Shown here one piece after another: positions 4,000 to 44,865 of a stretch of DNA of 54,423 nt (position 1 is its first letter; each line of letters opens with the position of its first letter). The stretch spans positions 1-54,423 of the forward strand of contig JAGDXU010000026.1 in the NCBI GenBank assembly GCA_023269965.1, in the 5' to 3' direction. Source of the stretch: Candidatus Parvarchaeota archaeon (GTDB lineage Archaea; Nanobdellota; Nanobdellia; Parvarchaeales; Parvarchaeaceae). The translations under genes were made by a program, and so were the position numbers. The notes beneath the pieces were generated by a model, which was not told where the DNA came from, did not search any database, and saw only the letters and a program-made list of their open reading frames with translations.

Positions 4000-4113
4000 T
4001 GGGGTCGTTGGGATTTGAACCCAAATCAAGCGGTTTCTTCTAATCATCCTTTTTACAGTCATTTTTCCAGTCTAGCTGGAGCCGCCTATTCTACCAGGTT
4101 AGACTACGACCCC
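4000..4113 (-). tRNA. tRNA-Trp(CCA) with a 41-nt intron at 37/38 (4035-4075)
   Basis: Acceptor stem GGGGTCG/CGACCCC, GTTCAAATC T-loop, anticodon arm GGCGG-CT-CCA-G|intron|A-CCGCT. Confidence 0.93.
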
Positions 4114-7048: not shown

Positions 7049-7126
7049 ATCTTCTATTAACTTTTAAGCCTATTTAAACTTTGCGCCGGCCTGAACCACG
7101 CATTTTTTCTAAAAGAACACAAAACT

Positions 7127-7210
7127 TGCAGAGGAGGGGATTTGAACCCCCGAGGGCGCTAGGCCATAAGGTCCTTAGCCTTACGCGTTGGACCGCTTCG
7201 CTACCTCTGC
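7127..7210 (-). tRNA. tRNA-Leu(AAG)
   Basis: Acceptor stem GCAGAGG/CCTCTGC-A, anticodon arm TAAGG-CT-AAG-GA-CCTTA, long variable arm, GTTCAAATC. Confidence 0.93.
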
Positions 7211-7396
7211 ATTCCAGCTTATTATCTTATATTATCTATCTTTATTTTAATTTATATTCTATCCTGATATGATGCTATGCGCTCTCTTACTATAAAATAG
7301 TGGGCACTGTCTGCTGATCCTGAATGATTTAAAGACTTAAATAAAACTTCACTTCTACTAAATCAATATAAGGTAGATATAGACAGTGGGGGTTTT

Positions 7397-30973: not shown

Positions 30974-31097
30974 TGCAGGGGGTGGGATTTGAACCCACGA
31001 GGGCGCTAGGCCACAGGATATCCTTCCCGATTCCTTAAAATCATCAAAAAAAGACCGGACTTAAGTCCTGCGCGTTGGGCCGCTTCGCTACCCCTGC
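30974..31097 (-). tRNA. tRNA-Leu(TAA) with a 40-nt intron at 37/38 (31020-31059)
   Basis: GCAGGGG/CCCCTGC-A stem; CAGGA-CT-TAA-G|intron|A-TCCTG; long variable arm. Confidence 0.93.
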
Positions 31098-35246: not shown

Positions 35247-35291
35247 GACTTGTTAACATTTAATGCAAATATTTTTGATTATACATGTAAT

Positions 35292-35365
35292 TGGGGTGGA
35301 TGGGATTTGAACCCACGACCTCTGGCACCCGAAACCAGTATCATACCAAGCTAGACTACCACCCC
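35292..35365 (-). tRNA. tRNA-Pro(CGG)
   Basis: GGGGTGG/CCACCCC-A stem; CTGGT-TT-CGG-GT-GCCAG arm; GTTCAAATC. Confidence 0.95.
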
Positions 35366-35370
35366 ATATA

Positions 35371-36388
35371 CTATTGTTGTGCCCTATGATACTCCGGATA
35401 CACACCTGGTCTCATTATAACACTGTCAGTTCTTATTACTATACCTTTCTCTATGTCTTTCAGTGAACTTGAATCTATCGCTGCCTTCCCTATTGCTACA
35501 ATCTCTCCTTTGAGTGTGTATATCAAAACCCATTCGTCTATCTTGAAAGGATTAAACTTAACTACGCCAGGGACAGCTACTGGAGCACCTTTGCAGACCG
35601 TATCAACGGCAAAATCAGATATCCACACCTTCGGAAGGAAATCTACAGCTTTCTCTATATTCTGGACCACCTTATTTAATGGCTTTTCATCCCCCTCCTT
35701 TTCATAGAAGTAAACCGCATCTTCTAAATTCTGAAGGGTCGACAAACTATCGTCTTCAGTGAGATTAGCAACTTTTGTCCTCCTCAATTCTACCATATGG
35801 GCGCCTACACCAATCTTTTCCCCCATGTCGTGTATCAGCTTCCTTATATATGTGCCTGATTCTACACCAACCCTAAAGAGGACATCTCTTCCATCTACTT
35901 CCAATATATCTAGATAATAAACTGTTCTCTCTCTATACTGCCTTTTTACATTTGATCTTACCGGCGGAAGCTGATTTATCTTGCCAACAAACTCTAGCAT
36001 CTGTTTCTTCAGATGCTCTTCATCGAATTCTTTATGAACATGCATCAAGGCAATGTATTCTTTTCCGCCTAAAAGAAGGAGAGCTATCGCTTTATTTGCG
36101 CGGTTTAAGGATAAAGGCAGCAATCCAGTCACGTTGGGATTTCTTTGTGAATCACACTAAAGTCCCTGAGTAACCGATCTTACTGACATTCAGCGGAGAC
36201 AGTATCCTCTTGGCGATAAAAGCGGAAGTCTTTGATCTTATTCCGCTTGGTTTGTCAAGCAAAATGAAGCCAAGGTCAAGCTTCTGCTTTATATTCCTCC
36301 TGTCGGGATATACTCCGTAATCCTCACAGGTCGCCTCATCGCGCAAAGATATAACTTCACGTTTTATACCTTCATAAGGCAGGCCCAT
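35371..36388 (-). CDS. cbf5: H/ACA pseudouridine synthase Cbf5 (TruB family), two exons: join(36157..36388, 35371..36140), 333 aa
   Basis: Exon 1 carries LDKPSG and GYSGTL; exon 2 carries KEYIA, QLPP, SGTYIRKL.HD.G, ELRRT and a PUA domain. Removing 36141-36156 gives 1002 nt in frame and restores GTLDPNVTG. Confidence 0.95.
36141..36156 (-). other. 16-nt bulge-helix-bulge (BHB) pre-mRNA intron in cbf5
   Basis: Minus strand GGGA-CTTT-AG|T-GTG-ATT-CAC-AAAG-AA|A-TCCC: 4-bp central helix CTTT/AAAG between two 3-nt bulges, with flanking helices. Confidence 0.92.
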
Positions 36389-36397
36389 TGAACTAGA

Positions 36398-36955
36398 TTA
36401 TACTTTAAAGAATTTAAATATAAAATCCACGCAGAGATCTCTTAGATTATCCCTGTCCAATTTACTGGAATCCACAACTAGATCAAATGGAGCTAAATCG
36501 TAGGACACGTCTATTTTGTACAAACTTCTATAAATATTTGCGGTCAAATCGTCTTTCTTTTTAATTGCAGTAAGGGCAGATTTGTATGGGATATCGTCTC
36601 TTATAGATACCCTACGCGCTCTCACCTCTATCGGTGCTTTAACATATATCTTCACTGTATTTCTATTGCTACCTAACAGCCATGGCATAGTCCAGCTATC
36701 CACTACAATATTATCGCTTCTCCTAATGATCCTAAGGAGCTCCGAATCTAGTCTTTTATCAAACTTGGTATTCTTGAGCCTAAAGAGGATCATCTGTATC
36801 CCTTCTTTAGATTCCCACGATCTAAACGTCTTGTCTGGAAGTAGATCTTTAAGCTTGGAACTGCCTGAGAGATACTCTAAATTAAGCTCATCTGCCAACC
36901 CCTTAGCTAAAGTAGTCTTTCCTGAAGCTGTCAGACCGGATACCGTTATTATCAT
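36398..36955 (-). CDS. cmk: Cytidylate kinase (archaeal type)
   Basis: IITVSGLTASGKTT, FDKRLD, VRARRV..RD, Y..LY.ID, FDLVVDS; conserved cmk-cbf5 synteny. Confidence 0.92.
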   Translation of the reverse strand: MIITVSGLTASGKTTLAKGLADELNLEYLSGSSKLKDLLPDKTFRSWESKEGIQMILFRLKNTKFDKRLDSELLRIIRRSDNIVVDSWTMPWLLGSNRNTVKIYVKAPIEVRARRVSIRDDIPYKSALTAIKKKDDLTANIYRSLYKIDVSYDLAPFDLVVDSSKLDRDNLRDLCVDFIFKFFKV

Positions 36956-36997: not shown

Positions 36998-39900
36998 CTA
37001 AATGCTATTGTTTTCTATGAGAGAAAGGTTCTTATCAAACACACTTGGAAGATAGCTTAGATTATCACAGTAATTTATAGCTGCAGGGGAAGTCGAACAT
37101 TCCCCAGTCAGTTCATACTTTGAAAGCTGTGTGTAGTTTATCTGATAAACGTTTATGTTCGTAAGAACTTGATTCTCGATGCTTAGAAGAGAGTTCACTG
37201 GCAGGTTGTCAGAGAACACCAGCTTAAAGCCAGGGACAGTCTCATTCAAAAGATATAACTTTACAAATAATGTGTTTAATGTTTGATTTGGCATGAATAA
37301 GCCAGCAGGTTGATTTCCATAGGAAGATAGATTAATTGGTTCCGGTATATAGCCCTGGCCTACTCCACCTATATGGAGAGTTGCTGTCTCGTTTGGAAGA
37401 AGAAGCATGAATCCTCCAGGTATGCCGCTTGTGCTTTCCTGCACACACCCTTTAGAATAAGTACACATGTAATCTATTGGCATGGGAGACGAAGCCTGCT
37501 GCGTTAAGGTATTGTAGATTATACCGTAAGGTTTTCCTATCACTGTGGATGAATTAAACGGCAGCAGCACCTCAAGTAATATGGCATCGCTTGCCGGGAC
37601 GTTCTGTAATCCAACTGTTACATTCGAATTGACCAAAGCATAACCTGTGTTTGGGCTCCCCCCAAACACAGCCAGATACTTATAACTAGCGTTACCGATG
37701 TTGTTAGAATTCAATTGTGATGTCCCCTCTATCAGCGGAGAAAATTCAGTCGGCTTCAATGCTATCGTTGAGATAGCTGAGAACTTTAAAACTTCGCTGC
37801 CGCTGATAACTGCGTACGTTGGTTCATGAATAAAATGAAGATAAGTCGCATACTGGTAAGGTGATGTGGCTTCAAAGAAGTACTTTGCAATCATAGACTG
37901 ATATCCATAGGCGTTACTCCCGTCAGCAACTGCTGTTCTTCCAGCTATCGCCTCTTCCCAATAACCATAATCCCACCACGAGATTATTGAACTGTTAGCG
38001 GGAGTATTCTGGTTTATCCAAAGCATAGTAGGGCCCCAAAGCGCAAGACCTGATCCACTCTGCTGCGCTATCTGATAAGATACTGTCAAACTGTCGTACA
38101 ACTCTATAGCAACGAATGTAAGTGCTATAATGGTTATCAGACCTACTGCCAGATAGAATAACCTCTTCTGTTCAGGGCTCTTGAATAACGACTTAGTGTA
38201 TTTGATCCCGGAGTTAGTCAAGAAAACAACTGCTAGAGGAACCAACAATGCTGCTGTTAGATCAGTCGGTTCCAAAAGCCTCAACTCTAAATTTGATAAA
38301 ACCAATGTCAAAATGAATAAAGTTAGGAGCATAAGGTACACTTTATCTGAGACGCTCTCCCTTTCAAATTTATCAAATACTAAGAATATAGTGAATATGC
38401 CAATCAAACCAAAGGCTCCATATTTATAGTAATTCTTAGCTTGCCCTATAGCCAGCGAAACAACAATCAAGATTATAGATATAAACACAAAAACAGCTAC
38501 ATTTCCGAGGAGCTTTTTGCTTCTGTGCCGACTGAATTCATATAGCGCTATGACCTCTGGCAAAAATGACATTATAACTGTTACTATAAGGTAAACTTCC
38601 GAGGATAAGCTGAATGAGAAGGTTCCACCATTTATAAGTACCACCATCGGAAGCAACAGAGAATAGAAGATATACCAGTGCTTGAATCTCCTTGAAATAA
38701 GATAAAGGAGCACTCCGGAACCAATGAACAGCAGCAAGAAATTTACCCCGATACCTGAAACAACAAAATTGTACTCTGAGAACCTATCTGCGAGGTTAAC
38801 GACGCCATACTCAGCAATCGTCAAAGACAGTGGATTTACAGCGCCAAGGCCAAGCGGATGAGCTATCTCCGAGCTCAGAAATGTAAGGATTTTATGGAGT
38901 AAATTCAACTTAGGAATTAGGCTTATCACAAAACTTATCAAGAGCGCATATATAACCGGGCTTGTGCCTTCGTTGATATGAGGTATCCTCAATCTATCTT
39001 TGTATTTATCATAAACGAAAAGCTTAAAGAGTATCACTAAATACACAAAGTACATCGGAAACAGCTCAAAACTCAACAAGTTCGACAGACTGAAGTTCAA
39101 GAAACTGGCTTCAAATGCTAGGAACAACCCAAATGGCAAAAACGCGTACAGATCCTCCTTCTTATCGAATTCAAACATTATCAAAAGAAGGTATGTCAGT
39201 GGTATGGTTATTACAGAGAACTCTGCGTAGCCACTGGTTATCGTCCCAAAACCTACTGATATAGCCATCAGAAAGCCATACAACAGTTTAGAATTTCTGT
39301 CTTTTGACGTGAATATTTTTACAAGCATGAAAAATGACAAGAATATAAACATGAAACCCATCGCGGTCTTAGTTGAAAATCCTGCTGAGGTCCTGCCTAG
39401 CAGTGTTTCAAACGCAGGAAAAACAAAGGCTCCCAAAGAAGCCATCCAATAATCTCTGAAGATGTACAACAGAATGAAGAATAAGAGCAGGGTCATAACC
39501 ACCGCAACAATCGGTGGGTAAATCATAAACCAAGTCATTGGGGTAGCGGCTGGAACCAAAGGCTGCATGAAACGATACATGTACGCGCCGAAAAACGATA
39601 TAAGAACTTCCTGAGACCTTGAGGCTAACCCTATCGGGAGGTACTGAAGATGGTTTATCACGGGTACATTACCAGTCGTAATGATATCCTTCATGAGGTC
39701 ATAGAATTCATACGGGTCTAAACCAGTAAGCGAACCGCCCATACCTAGATAATCATTGCCGACCAGTGGCGTAGCCCCTAATGCAGGTAAGCTAGCAGTC
39801 CTTATTAACAAACCTAGGATTATTGCTGTAAACAAAAGCGCATAAAACGGCGCCTTGTGTTTGGTGAATAAGGCTGAGAGGACAGCTGAGACTATCATAA

Positions 39901-40168
39901 GTACGAGAGTGATATAGAAATAAATCGATAGATAAGTGTAAAGCAAAGAGACCACCATCAAAACCGCTAGAATGGCGAATATGAGGCCATAACCTACGCC
40001 ATACTTTACCACTGGCTTCAACATCGACTTTATAGAATCAAGATTGAGATTTAATTCAAGCTCGGTGACTTTTTCAGTCTTTTTTTCCTCATGGACTTGC
40101 GGCGGAGATTCTCGAGATTTATCCCCGTTTACATTGTTTTCCATTTCCTCTTTTTTCAGGCCGTCCAT
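36998..40168 (-). CDS. aglB: Oligosaccharyltransferase AglB (STT3)
   Basis: LDPY, TIAE, SWWDYG and VADG motifs; polytopic N-terminus. Confidence 0.95.
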   Translation of the reverse strand: MDGLKKEEMENNVNGDKSRESPPQVHEEKKTEKVTELELNLNLDSIKSMLKPVVKYGVGYGLIFAILAVLMVVSLLYTYLSIYFYITLVLMIVSAVLSALFTKHKAPFYALLFTAIILGLLIRTASLPALGATPLVGNDYLGMGGSLTGLDPYEFYDLMKDIITTGNVPVINHLQYLPIGLASRSQEVLISFFGAYMYRFMQPLVPAATPMTWFMIYPPIVAVVMTLLLFFILLYIFRDYWMASLGAFVFPAFETLLGRTSAGFSTKTAMGFMFIFLSFFMLVKIFTSKDRNSKLLYGFLMAISVGFGTITSGYAEFSVITIPLTYLLLIMFEFDKKEDLYAFLPFGLFLAFEASFLNFSLSNLLSFELFPMYFVYLVILFKLFVYDKYKDRLRIPHINEGTSPVIYALLISFVISLIPKLNLLHKILTFLSSEIAHPLGLGAVNPLSLTIAEYGVVNLADRFSEYNFVVSGIGVNFLLLFIGSGVLLYLISRRFKHWYIFYSLLLPMVVLINGGTFSFSLSSEVYLIVTVIMSFLPEVIALYEFSRHRSKKLLGNVAVFVFISIILIVVSLAIGQAKNYYKYGAFGLIGIFTIFLVFDKFERESVSDKVYLMLLTLFILTLVLSNLELRLLEPTDLTAALLVPLAVVFLTNSGIKYTKSLFKSPEQKRLFYLAVGLITIIALTFVAIELYDSLTVSYQIAQQSGSGLALWGPTMLWINQNTPANSSIISWWDYGYWEEAIAGRTAVADGSNAYGYQSMIAKYFFEATSPYQYATYLHFIHEPTYAVISGSEVLKFSAISTIALKPTEFSPLIEGTSQLNSNNIGNASYKYLAVFGGSPNTGYALVNSNVTVGLQNVPASDAILLEVLLPFNSSTVIGKPYGIIYNTLTQQASSPMPIDYMCTYSKGCVQESTSGIPGGFMLLLPNETATLHIGGVGQGYIPEPINLSSYGNQPAGLFMPNQTLNTLFVKLYLLNETVPGFKLVFSDNLPVNSLLSIENQVLTNINVYQINYTQLSKYELTGECSTSPAAINYCDNLSYLPSVFDKNLSLIENNSI

Positions 40169-44086: not shown

Positions 44087-44865
44087 ACAACTCAAAAGTT
44101 TTCCTGAAGAATAAAGCCATAATGGACAAGATAATAGAAGCAGCAGAACTCGATAAAAACGATATAGTCTTAGAGATAGGGAGTGGGGATGGAAGGCTCA
44201 CAGAGAAGATAGCTTCAAAGGCAAAAAAAGTGTATGCGGTCGAGAAAGACTTATTCCTAATAGATAAATCAAAGGTAAAGCTTTCAAACTACAAAAACAT
44301 AGAGTTCATGAACCAAGATATTCTAGAGATATCTTTCCCTGAGGATGTAAATAAGATAATATCCAATTTACCCTACAGCATCGCATCACCTATAACTGAG
44401 AGGATAATCCGATTTATGAACAACCACACGAACTCTATAGCGGTGTTAATGTATCAGAAGGAGTTTGGGGAGAGAATGCTCGCTGCCCCCGGCTACACTG
44501 ATTATTCTATGCTAACTGTATTCTGCACATATACTTGCAGTATCAACAAGATAATGGATGTCAGCAAAGCAAACTTCAGGCCTATCCCCTCAGTTGATTC
44601 AATAGTGATAAAGATAAAACCAAAGAACATAAAGATTGATGACAACTTCATAAACTTCTGCAAACTTATTTTCCAACACAAAAAAAAGAACGTTTATACA
44701 GCTATAATGTCAAGCAGAAGCAAACTTAAAACAAGCGACAAAGATTTGATAAGGGAAAAGCTAAGTAAAGTCAACAAGAACTATTTAAAGGAGAAAGTTT
44801 TCTTTCTTAGCTTGGATGACTTAATGGATTTATACAAAGAGGTAGTTTCTGCTGGCATATGGTAG
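44083..44865 (+). CDS. ksgA: 16S rRNA dimethyladenosine transferase
   Basis: VLEIGSGDGRLT, ISNLPYSI, LMYQKEF, FRP.P.VDS. Confidence 0.95.
   Translation: MNNSKVFLKNKAIMDKIIEAAELDKNDIVLEIGSGDGRLTEKIASKAKKVYAVEKDLFLIDKSKVKLSNYKNIEFMNQDILEISFPEDVNKIISNLPYSIASPITERIIRFMNNHTNSIAVLMYQKEFGERMLAAPGYTDYSMLTVFCTYTCSINKIMDVSKANFRPIPSVDSIVIKIKPKNIKIDDNFINFCKLIFQHKKKNVYTAIMSSRSKLKTSDKDLIREKLSKVNKNYLKEKVFFLSLDDLMDLYKEVVSAGIW

What the first reader, a model, noticed from the sequence alone, without database searches (positions are those of the whole stretch)
36136..36166. 16-nt BHB intron inside the catalytic Asp codon of cbf5: mRNA splicing in a DPANN-like archaeon
Seen in sequence: the ORF track splits cbf5 into 78-aa and 253-aa pieces. 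Removing exactly TGTGATTCACAAAGAA (36156-36141) joins TTA G|AT CCC AAC GTG and restores GTLDPNVTG in a 333-aa ORF; the boundaries cannot slide. The junctions fold into a strict BHB: GGGA/TCCC helix, AA|A bulge, CTTT/AAAG 4-bp helix, AG|T bulge, GTG/CAC hairpin, with both cuts at canonical bulge positions. The unspliced mRNA hits TGA within the intron. Established: BHB introns at this codon of cbf5 are known from Crenarchaeota and are removed by tRNA splicing endonuclease plus ligase. Inference: occurrence in a DPANN-like genome is outside the lineage I know it from, implying ancient retention, host-to-symbiont transfer or independent gain at a hotspot. Other apparent pseudogenes in such genomes may also be spliced.
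Basis: partly seen in the sequence, partly recalled or inferred. Interest (0 to 1): 0.9.

Follow-up and report, generated by a model that had tools for sequence, protein, structure and literature searches.

The report
Spliced mini-intron inside archaeal cbf5 gene
A 16-base intron of the tRNA-splicing type interrupts the catalytic codon of the pseudouridine synthase gene cbf5 in this tiny acid-mine archaeon, and the same kind of intron turns up at the same spot in dozens of related ultra-small archaea, well outside the one group where it was known.

Summary
On the minus strand, cbf5 is split into 78-aa and 253-aa ORFs by 16 nt (36156-36141). These lie between bases 1 and 2 of the catalytic Asp codon. 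The flanks form a strict hBHBh' motif, and its canonical cut sites give a 333-aa ORF with GTLDPNVTG.

The genome (666 kb) is Ca. Acidifodinimicrobium, order Parvarchaeales, a DPANN lineage. It encodes one alpha-type EndA and RtcB.

Comparative evidence is strong:
- Inserts of 12-16 nt sit at the same spot in 29 of 39 Parvarchaeales genomes, and inserts of 13-29 nt in 33 genomes of other orders of the phylum.
- Across 44 distinct alleles the central helix pairs in 100% of cells, with many compensatory exon/intron changes.
- Both exons are under purifying selection (dN/dS 0.04-0.11).
- Intron-free alleles let the helix-forming synonymous sites drift.

The best explanation is a BHB intron removed from the mRNA by EndA and RtcB (confidence 0.9). 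No RNA data could be obtained. My paper searches found cbf5 introns reported only from Crenarchaeota, so this is a new member of a known kind, and unexpectedly widespread.

Still open: whether the shared site reflects ancient origin, transfer or a hotspot, and how an alpha4-type EndA cuts the 12-nt forms.

The parts
36157..36388 (-). cbf5 exon 1: ATG at 36388 to the first base (G36157) of the catalytic Asp codon. Encodes the DKCLD domain and the start of TruB_N, ending ...GYSGTL + G.
   Evidence: TIGR00425 positions 7-69; dN/dS 0.07-0.11 against congeners
36141..36156 (-). 16-nt BHB intron. It has an in-frame TGA in the unspliced reading and is identical in 4 of 5 species genomes of the genus.
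35371..36140 (-). cbf5 exon 2: the last two bases of the Asp codon (AT) through the stop. Encodes the rest of TruB_N, TruB_C_2 and PUA.
   Evidence: TIGR00425 positions 70-320, E 1.6e-83; dN/dS 0.04-0.05
36136..36166 (-). hBHBh' splicing motif. Exon-exon helix h: 36166-36163 with 36139-36136. Central 4-bp helix H: 36162-36159 with 36146-36143. 3-nt bulges: 36158-36156 and 36142-36140. Inner helix h': 36155-36153 with 36149-36147. Loop: 36152-36150. Predicted cuts fall after G36157 and after A36141.
   Evidence: read; covariation; BHB conformer -11.4 kcal/mol
36398..36955 (-). Context only: cytidylate-kinase-like gene directly upstream of cbf5 on the same strand.
   Evidence: PF13189, E 1.3e-20
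35291..35366 (-). Context only: tRNA-Pro(CGG) directly downstream of cbf5.

Best explanation
The 16 nt at 36156-36141 are an archaeal bulge-helix-bulge intron in the cbf5 pre-mRNA.

Proposed mechanism (inferred, not observed):
1. The transcript folds, or is held by the enzyme, so that exon bases GGGA/UCCC and CUUU/AAAG flank two 3-nt bulges.
2. The tRNA-splicing endonuclease EndA cuts after the second base of each bulge.
3. The RtcB ligase joins the exons. This recreates the GAT codon of the catalytic Asp and a 333-aa Cbf5, the H/ACA-type pseudouridine synthase.
4. Unspliced mRNA stops at TGA two codons into the intron, so active Cbf5 depends on the tRNA-splicing machinery.

Shown here: the motif, its exact register, its conservation and covariation, selection on both exons, and the presence of EndA and RtcB genes.

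Within Parvarchaeales the intron looks ancestral, with two losses.
For: 1. Geometry and register. A strict hBHBh' with 11 Watson-Crick pairs, whose canonical cut positions give the only junction that restores LDP and one long frame. The cut rule and the codon position match the crenarchaeal case (PMC2738675).

2. Distribution.
- An insert sits at the same G|AY point in 29 of the 39 Parvarchaeales species genomes that have a cbf5 match, out of 40 in the order. By genus: g1 4 of 5 (16 nt), g2 24 of 33 (12 nt), g3 1 of 1 (15 nt).
- A sequence pattern for the junction hit 17 of 401 sampled genomes of the phylum and 30 of 240 genomes of a second order.
- The reversed-pattern control hit none of the genomes in either search.
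- One of the 17 hits (G296) was a false positive inside an unrelated ORF. One true case (G139) was missed by the pattern and found as a split match.

3. In-silico splicing restores a stop-free frame of 236-416 codons containing GTLDP in all 61 loci tested. The shortest ones are cut by contig ends.

4. Covariation over 44 distinct alleles.
- 95.9% of cells pair, against 84.5 +/- 1.0% in shuffles (0 of 500 shuffles as high).
- 33-58% pair when the partners are slid by 1-3 columns.
- Helix H is 100% paired. Pair 6:36 is UA 24 / CG 18 / UG 2, and pair 7:35 is UA 29 / CG 15.
- The first h' pair is GC 26 / AU 12 / UA 3 / CG 2 / other 1.

5. Synonymous sites. All 29 intron alleles of the order read GGG-AC(T/C)-TTA-G..AT-CC(C/T). 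The 10 intron-free alleles use GGT or GGC (0 of 10 GGG), six different Leu codons, GAT or GAC, and all four Pro codons.

6. Selection. dN/dS is 0.04-0.11 for both exons wherever dS was measurable. The 16-nt intron is identical among species whose dS is 0.45-2.0.

7. Machinery.
- One EndA gene of 176 aa (PF01974 E 1.2e-24, TIGR00324 E 1.3e-30) aligns over its full length with the M. jannaschii homotetramer chain 1a79.
- RtcB is present (E 2.1e-156).
- aragorn predicts 5 plausible intron-bearing tRNA genes in the genome (Met, Thr, Trp, Leu-TAA, Cys), so the pathway is needed anyway. Two further intron calls look dubious.
Against: - No RNA or protein evidence: no RNA run was listed for this stretch, so splicing itself is unobserved.
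- The BHB conformer is not the predicted ground state. It scores -11.4 kcal/mol against an MFE of -15.4 for the 51-nt region, with a model probability below 0.1%. The local fold z-score is only -2.2.
- Published cbf5 splicing is tied to hetero-oligomeric (alpha-beta)2 EndA with relaxed specificity (PMC2738675; PMC10485636). Here only one alpha-type subunit is detectable per genome, in 39 of 40 genomes of the order at E <= 1.
- The 12-nt inserts of the sister genus can form only a 1-bp inner helix. That does not fit the textbook alpha4 requirement.
- The alleles in the covariation set were collected partly with a sequence pattern. It fixed some columns (G at column 37, R at column 36, ATCC) but did not fix their complementarity to the exon columns.
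Confidence: 0.9

Rival explanations
1. cbf5 is a decaying pseudogene, and the 16 nt are a random insertion that killed it.
For: Gene callers would see two ORFs and a stop. Reduced DPANN genomes do lose genes.
Against: Both halves are under strong purifying selection (dN/dS 0.04-0.11). The insert is identical in four species and has homologous counterparts in 62 genomes, always at the same base. Compensatory exon/intron changes keep the helices.
Confidence: 0.02
2. A split gene: the 78-aa and 253-aa pieces are translated separately and assemble, with no RNA splicing, as for split genes of Nanoarchaeum.
For: A GTG codon at 36132 could start the second ORF. Split protein genes are recalled from Nanoarchaeota, not checked here.
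Against: The catalytic Asp codon itself is cut, so neither piece would carry it. In the sister genus the insert is in frame (12 nt), which gives a stop and not two start-equipped ORFs. A split gene does not explain the BHB covariation or the frozen synonymous sites.
Confidence: 0.03
3. Translational recoding: ribosomes bypass or frameshift across the 16 nt, or read through the TGA in the 12-nt forms.
For: A short insert with a stable hairpin could in principle promote hopping.
Against: Insert lengths of 12-29 nt in all three frame classes share one structure, not one coding solution. Read-through of the in-frame forms would replace the catalytic Asp by variable residues: ED*RN, EN*RN, EH*RN, E**RN. 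The covarying pairs link exon and insert bases exactly as EndA substrates require.
Confidence: 0.02
4. Assembly or sequencing artefact in a metagenome-assembled genome.
For: The genome is a 27-contig draft.
Against: The same 16 nt occur in G001, G003 and G004. Two of these correspond to independently named assemblies.
Confidence: 0.005

Closest known systems
cbf5 pre-mRNA intron of Crenarchaeota (Desulfurococcales and Sulfolobales; Watanabe 2002, Yoshinari 2006, Yokobori 2009). I read only Yokobori 2009, PMC2738675: passages plus section 8.
   Same: Same gene and same insertion point, between base 1 and base 2 of the catalytic Asp codon. Same cut rule (after the 2nd base of each 3-nt bulge). 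Short size (16-44 bp reported; 16 nt here). Patchy presence with secondary losses inside a clade.
   Different: The host is a DPANN lineage (Parvarchaeales), not Thermoproteota. The motif here is a strict hBHBh', whereas most crenarchaeal ones are described as unconventional or relaxed. Only a single alpha-type EndA gene is detectable, instead of the (alpha-beta)2 enzyme to which cbf5 splicing was linked. Relatives carry 12-15-nt versions, shorter than any cbf5 intron in that paper. Sequence relatedness to the crenarchaeal introns could not be tested.
Archaeal pre-tRNA BHB introns (canonical 37/38 and non-canonical positions)
   Same: Same motif, same predicted enzymes (EndA, RtcB) and a similar size range (11-175 nt, quoted in PMC2738675). 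The genome itself has predicted intron-bearing tRNA genes.
   Different: The substrate is a protein-coding mRNA, and both outer helices are built from codons. This constrains synonymous sites of Gly, Thr, Leu, Asp and Pro.
BHB intron in the 5' UTR of HVO_1309 of Haloferax volcanii (Schwarz 2020, PMC7714728, passages read)
   Same: An mRNA processed by a non-heteromeric EndA at a BHB site.
   Different: That intron lies in an untranslated leader. Here it interrupts the reading frame at a catalytic codon.
Inteins in cbf5 of other families of the same phylum (seen here)
   Same: Another intervening element in the same gene, removed after expression.
   Different: Protein-level splicing, about 1.5 kb, in frame, at a different site (TIGR00425 position ~174), with Intein_splicing and LAGLIDADG domains.

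Membership tests
Archaeal BHB (EndA-type) intron | Two 3-nt bulges on opposite strands separated by a 4-bp helix and flanked by helices (hBHBh') | tested here: met
   Read: h 4 bp, H 4 bp, h' 3 bp, bulges AGU and AAA. The structure evaluates to -11.4 kcal/mol.
Archaeal BHB (EndA-type) intron | Cuts after the 2nd base of each bulge give a functional exon junction | tested here: met
   The junction restores GAT (Asp) and a 333-aa frame. The cut rule is as stated in PMC2738675.
Archaeal BHB (EndA-type) intron | Helices maintained by compensatory change in relatives | tested here: met
   H helix 100% paired in 44 alleles, with UA/CG exchanges at two pairs. 0 of 500 shuffles reach the observed score, and slid controls reach 33-58%.
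Archaeal BHB (EndA-type) intron | Splicing endonuclease and RNA ligase encoded by the organism | tested here: met
   EndA. RtcB.
Archaeal BHB (EndA-type) intron | Spliced RNA, or cleavage by EndA, observed | not testable with these tools
   No RNA run was listed, and no bench work is possible.
Crenarchaeal cbf5 intron lineage | Insertion between the 1st and 2nd letter of the catalytic Asp codon of cbf5 | tested here: met
   One search compared with the PMC2738675 passage.
Crenarchaeal cbf5 intron lineage | Host in Desulfurococcales or Sulfolobales | tested here: not met
   The nearest records are Ca. Acidifodinimicrobium, filed under Ca. Parvarchaeota.
Crenarchaeal cbf5 intron lineage | Relaxed BHB cut by a hetero-oligomeric (alpha-beta)2 EndA | tested here: not met
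   The motif here is strict. Only one PF01974 unit per genome was found, even at E <= 10 in the own genome and E <= 1 in the order. A very divergent beta subunit cannot be excluded.
Crenarchaeal cbf5 intron lineage | Intron sequence homologous to the crenarchaeal introns | not tested
The paper's figures and Additional file 1 are not held.
Cbf5 / TruB-family pseudouridine synthase | DKCLD + TruB_N + TruB_C_2 + PUA architecture with the catalytic Asp in GTLDP | tested here: met
   Domains, TIGR00425. The Asp codon exists only after removal of the 16 nt.

The most novel reading that the evidence does not exclude
The Asp-codon intron of cbf5 is either older than the split between DPANN and TACK archaea, or is a site-specific BHB element that has repeatedly entered this one spot. 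The codons of G-T-L-D-P are self-complementary there (GGNA pairs with UCCN) and offer a ready-made outer helix. On this reading the intron persists because it ties Cbf5 production to the tRNA-splicing machinery. It would then be the most widespread protein-coding intron in Archaea. It would also be processed by plain alpha4 endonucleases, down to a 12-nt form, which overturns the idea that relaxed heteromeric EndA was needed for mRNA introns to arise.
Probability: 0.3. Interest if true: 0.85.

Novelty: new member of a known kind. Interest (0 to 1): 0.7.

Why it matters
BHB introns in protein-coding reading frames are a rarity. The papers I could read name cbf5 of Crenarchaeota as the only coding-region case (PMC7714728). 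They also say that only a small group of related archaea has it (PMC10485636).

Why the new occurrences matter:
- **Distribution.** The same intron in at least 62 species genomes of a DPANN phylum, across at least three order-level groups besides Parvarchaeales, changes that picture.
- **Annotation.** Cbf5 will be mis-called as two ORFs or a pseudogene in these genomes. Genome-quality marker sets may therefore undercount it.
- **Origin of mRNA introns.** It weakens the proposed link between mRNA introns and heteromeric, relaxed-specificity EndA.
- **Testability.** There are now many natural variants (12-29 nt, six different H-helix sequences) for testing what an alpha4 EndA really needs. Old inheritance against a structural hotspot can also be tested.

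Tried and rejected
- RNA evidence: the look-up of sequencing runs for 35371-36388 listed no RNA holder. None was listed.
- Earlier findings of this scan were not open to the session.
- ViennaRNA MFE of the 51-nt region gives a different local pairing. I rejected it as the functional fold because slid registers pair in only 33-58% of cells across alleles.
- Genome-wide strict-BHB scan of the own genome: 3629 hits. I did not compute a random expectation in a call, and I read this count as background. 57 hits would fuse two frames of at least 60 codons. Apart from cbf5 I checked only the window candidate 8858-8828, which is an ordinary 8-nt overlap of two ATG-started genes. The other 55 were not examined, so no second mRNA intron was shown or excluded.
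- Second EndA subunit: not found with PF01974 at E <= 10 in the own genome or at E <= 1 in the order.
- Pattern hit in G296 rejected: it lies inside a continuous unrelated ORF and its H helix does not pair.
- In-frame stops in the cbf5 matches of G320, G409 and G124, and the splits in G031 and G203, are not at the Asp codon. G203 has a frameshift in an A run.
- Splits near profile position 170 in ten genomes: in nine the two matched pieces lie in one continuous 820-891-aa ORF. G087 has intein domains there, so these are inteins, not BHB introns. The tenth, G319, is split into two short ORFs and was not followed.
- Literature searches:
  - 'cbf5'+'intron'+'DPANN': 0 papers.
  - 'cbf5'+'ARMAN'+'intron': 21 papers, listing only seen, none on this.
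  - 'bulge-helix-bulge'+'DPANN': 3 papers, none on cbf5.
  - 'cbf5'+'intron'+'nanoarchae': 11 papers, none reporting a DPANN intron by their listings.
  - Neither Parvarchaeales genome paper contains 'intron' or 'cbf5'.
  - Fujishima 2011 on ARMAN EndA has no 'cbf5' or 'mRNA'.
  - Subscription journals and supplements were not searchable.
- Testing transfer from crenarchaeal hosts: not possible, because no crenarchaeal cbf5 DNA or labelled protein could be fetched with the remaining tools.

Full report
**What is in the window.** On the minus strand, a cytidylate-kinase-like gene (36955-36398) is followed by two ORFs. The first is 36388-36152 (78 aa, DKCLD domain). The second is 36132-35371 (253 aa; TruB_N, TruB_C_2, PUA). 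tRNA-Pro(CGG) follows. The CBF5 model TIGR00425 matches the two ORFs as positions 7-69 and 70-320, in different frames.

The sequence reads ...GGG ACT TTA G, then 16 nt, then AT CCC AAC GTG ACT GG. Removing 36156-36141 recreates GAT, the catalytic Asp in GTLDPNVTG, and gives a 1002-nt, 333-aa frame from the ATG at 36388. Left in place, the frame stops at TGA two codons later. A one-base shift of the deletion gives Val or Asn instead of Asp.

**The motif.** Read:
- GGGA (36166-36163) pairs with UCCC (36139-36136).
- CUUU (36162-36159) pairs with AAAG (36146-36143).
- GUG (36155-36153) pairs with CAC (36149-36147), around the loop AUU.
- Two 3-nt bulges remain, AG|U and AA|A.

This is the strict hBHBh' arrangement. 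Cutting after the second bulge base, the rule stated for cbf5 introns in PMC2738675, excises exactly the 16 nt. All 11 pairs are Watson-Crick.

A scan of the whole 666-kb genome for this geometry (G-U allowed, intron lengths 16-132) found 3629 instances, or about 2.3e-5 per site and length. The motif alone is cheap. Its coincidence with the one site and length that repairs the gene is not.

A caveat: the nearest-neighbour model prefers another local fold (-15.4 against -11.4 kcal/mol).

**Whose genome.** The assembly has 666,194 bases in 27 contigs and is about 90% complete. Its closest named relatives (96% and 90% identical Cbf5 C-terminal parts) are Ca. Acidifodinimicrobium MAGs. NCBI files this genus under Ca. 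Parvarchaeota, Nanobdellati, which is a DPANN lineage from acid mine drainage (PMC7779479, abstract seen in the listing; PMC10134863, passages).

The order holds 40 species genomes in three genera. From the genus list in PMC10134863 I infer these are Acidifodinimicrobium (g1), Parvarchaeum (g2) and Rehaiarchaeum (g3). Only g1 was named by a tool.

**Relatives in the order.** 39 of the 40 genomes have a cbf5 match. I read the junction in all 39.

| Genus | Genomes with insert | Insert | Intron-free genomes |
|---|---|---|---|
| g1 | 4 of 5 | 16 nt, identical in all four | G002 |
| g2 | 24 of 33 | 12 nt, in frame, always with TGA | 9 genomes |
| g3 | 1 of 1 | 15 nt | none |

All 29 inserts sit at G|AT of the Asp codon.

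In the 12-nt forms only positions 3-5 vary. Positions 2 (a) and 6 (u) are fixed, as expected for a one-pair inner helix closing a 3-nt loop.

All 29 intron alleles read GGG-AC(T/C)-TTA-G...AT-CC(C/T). The ten intron-free alleles use GGT or GGC (never GGG), six Leu codons, GAT or GAC, and all four Pro codons. The exon bases that build the helices are frozen only where the intron is present.

In a Cbf5 tree of 68 rows (quick IQ-TREE) the order is one starred clade (98), and the nine intron-free g2 genomes form one starred clade (97). G002 is a separate intron-free branch. This fits an ancestral intron with two losses, although the root is not inferred.

Rows left out of the tree:
- L012 (no frame found).
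- L032 and L085 (frameshifted).
- L086 (false positive).
- The 19 loci fetched later.

**Beyond the order.** A profile scan of 401 sampled genomes of the phylum (match rows truncated) and follow-up on 20 of them showed further splits at profile position ~70. A junction pattern then hit 17 of the 401 genomes, with 0 hits for the reversed-pattern control.
- G296 is a false positive.
- G139 is a true case missed by the pattern.
- That leaves 13 of 395 non-Parvarchaeales genomes, in ten families, as a lower bound.

Most of those families belong to one other order. There the pattern hit 30 of 240 species genomes, again with 0 control hits. With G139 that makes 31. G062 (f24) and G349 (f82) lie outside both orders.

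Insert lengths run from 13 to 29 nt. In-silico removal restored a GTLDP-containing frame in all 61 loci tested, that is 29 in the order plus 32 others. G462 was not fetched.

**Covariation.** 44 distinct alleles aligned flush at both junctions. For the ten pairs of h, H and the first two of h':

| Measure | Result |
|---|---|
| Cells paired, observed | 95.9% |
| Cells paired, shuffles | 84.5 +/- 1.0% (0 of 500 shuffles as high) |
| Cells paired, partners slid 1-3 columns | 33-58% |
| H helix | 100% paired |
| Pair 6:36 | UA 24, CG 18, UG 2 |
| Pair 7:35 | UA 29, CG 15 |
| Pair 8:34 | UA 30, UG 14 |
| Pair 12:33 (first of h') | GC 26, AU 12, UA 3, CG 2, other 1 |

A synonymous change in the Thr or Leu codon is therefore matched by a change in the intron. 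The pattern used to collect part of the set fixed G at column 37, R at column 36 and ATCC. It did not fix complementarity to the exon columns. Relatedness of the sequences inflates shuffle statistics, so the slid-register control is the fairer one.

**Selection.** Between species of the genus, dN/dS is 0.07-0.11 for exon 1 and 0.04-0.05 for exon 2 where dS was finite (dS 0.45-2.6). The 16-nt intron shows no change. This rules out a pseudogene.

**Machinery.**
- The genome has one EndA gene (176 aa; PF01974, TIGR00324). It aligns end to end with the M. jannaschii homotetramer chain 1a79 and keeps the conserved blocks aligned to the catalytic domains of solved EndAs.
- It has RtcB.
- It has 5 plausible predicted intron-bearing tRNA genes, among them Trp and Leu(TAA) in this window.
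- No second EndA subunit appears at E <= 10 here or at E <= 1 in the order.
- Fujishima 2011 (PMC3239211, passages) classed the 177-aa EndA of ARMAN-4/5 as a typical alpha4.
- Kaneta 2018 (PMC5829648, passages) notes that ARMAN-4 lacks the L3 loop linked to broad specificity.

The strict motif in this window fits an alpha4 enzyme. The 12-nt forms of the sister genus do not fit obviously, and that remains unexplained.

**Comparison with what is known.** Yokobori 2009 reports cbf5 introns of 16-44 bp at this same codon position in Desulfurococcales and Sulfolobales. They are mostly unconventional BHB, cleaved by heteromeric EndA, with lineage-specific losses, and N. equitans is intron-free. Schwarz 2020 and a 2023 review still describe cbf5 of Crenarchaeota as the coding-region example, confined to a small group. 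My searches found no report for DPANN. Subscription papers and all supplements were out of reach.

The window's intron therefore works like, and sits exactly like, the crenarchaeal one. It fails two descriptive features of that lineage, the host group and the relaxed motif with heteromeric enzyme. Its sequence homology to the crenarchaeal introns is untested. I file it as a new member of a known kind.

**Origin.** The exon helix h comes for free from the protein motif: GGN-A of Gly-Thr is complementary to U-CCN of Asp-Pro. The site is thus pre-adapted, which favours a hotspot. On the other hand, intron cores are similar across orders. For example, the inner eight bases are identical in G006 and G453 while the H helix differs with compensatory exon change. 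This favours common descent or transfer. In the Cbf5 tree, the Parvarchaeales clade and a loose cluster holding the other 13 intron alleles (support 85, with four intron-free rows inside) are not sisters. However, few intron-free rows were included and the deep nodes are open. Transfer from crenarchaeal hosts could not be tested.

**Verdict.** The mechanism is inferred with high confidence but not observed.

Noticed in passing
L111:317-2944 (-) (G087). Also G085, G148, G149, G218, G308, G328, G330, G437.: In other families of the phylum, cbf5 is one 820-891-aa ORF with a ~1.5-kb in-frame insert near TIGR00425 position 174. In G087 the insert carries Intein_splicing and LAGLIDADG_3 domains between TruB_N and TruB_C_2, so it is an intein. 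cbf5 thus hosts two kinds of intervening element in this phylum.
   Followed up: partly
window 7126-7211 (-); another contig of the genome at 44583-44657 (+) (contig name not printed): [quoted passage not shown] This is the same oddity reported for ARMAN-4/5 in PMC3239211.
   Followed up: no
window 4000-4113 (-) and 30974-31097 (-): aragorn in intron mode predicts tRNA-Trp(CCA) with a 41-nt intron and tRNA-Leu(TAA) with a 40-nt intron. Both were missed by the default tRNA scan. They are further likely substrates of the same EndA and RtcB.
   Followed up: partly
window 36998-40168 (-): A 1056-aa multi-pass membrane ORF directly upstream of cmk has no Pfam match at E <= 0.001.
   Followed up: no
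L038 (G006) and L093 (G453): Two 15-nt cbf5 introns from different orders share an identical 8-base inner core. Their central helices differ (CCUU/AAGG against CUCU/AGAG), each matched to its own exon.
   Followed up: partly
L085 (G203); L032 (G031): The cbf5 matches are split away from the Asp codon. G203 has a frameshift in a run of A upstream. G031 is split at profile position 92. These are probably sequencing errors or real frameshifts, not BHB sites.
   Followed up: no
window 36125-36175 (-): An extra 6-bp outer pairing (GGUUAC with GUGACU) between the Gly-Tyr codons and the Val-Thr codons brackets the BHB in the MFE fold. Whether it is conserved was not tested.
   Followed up: no
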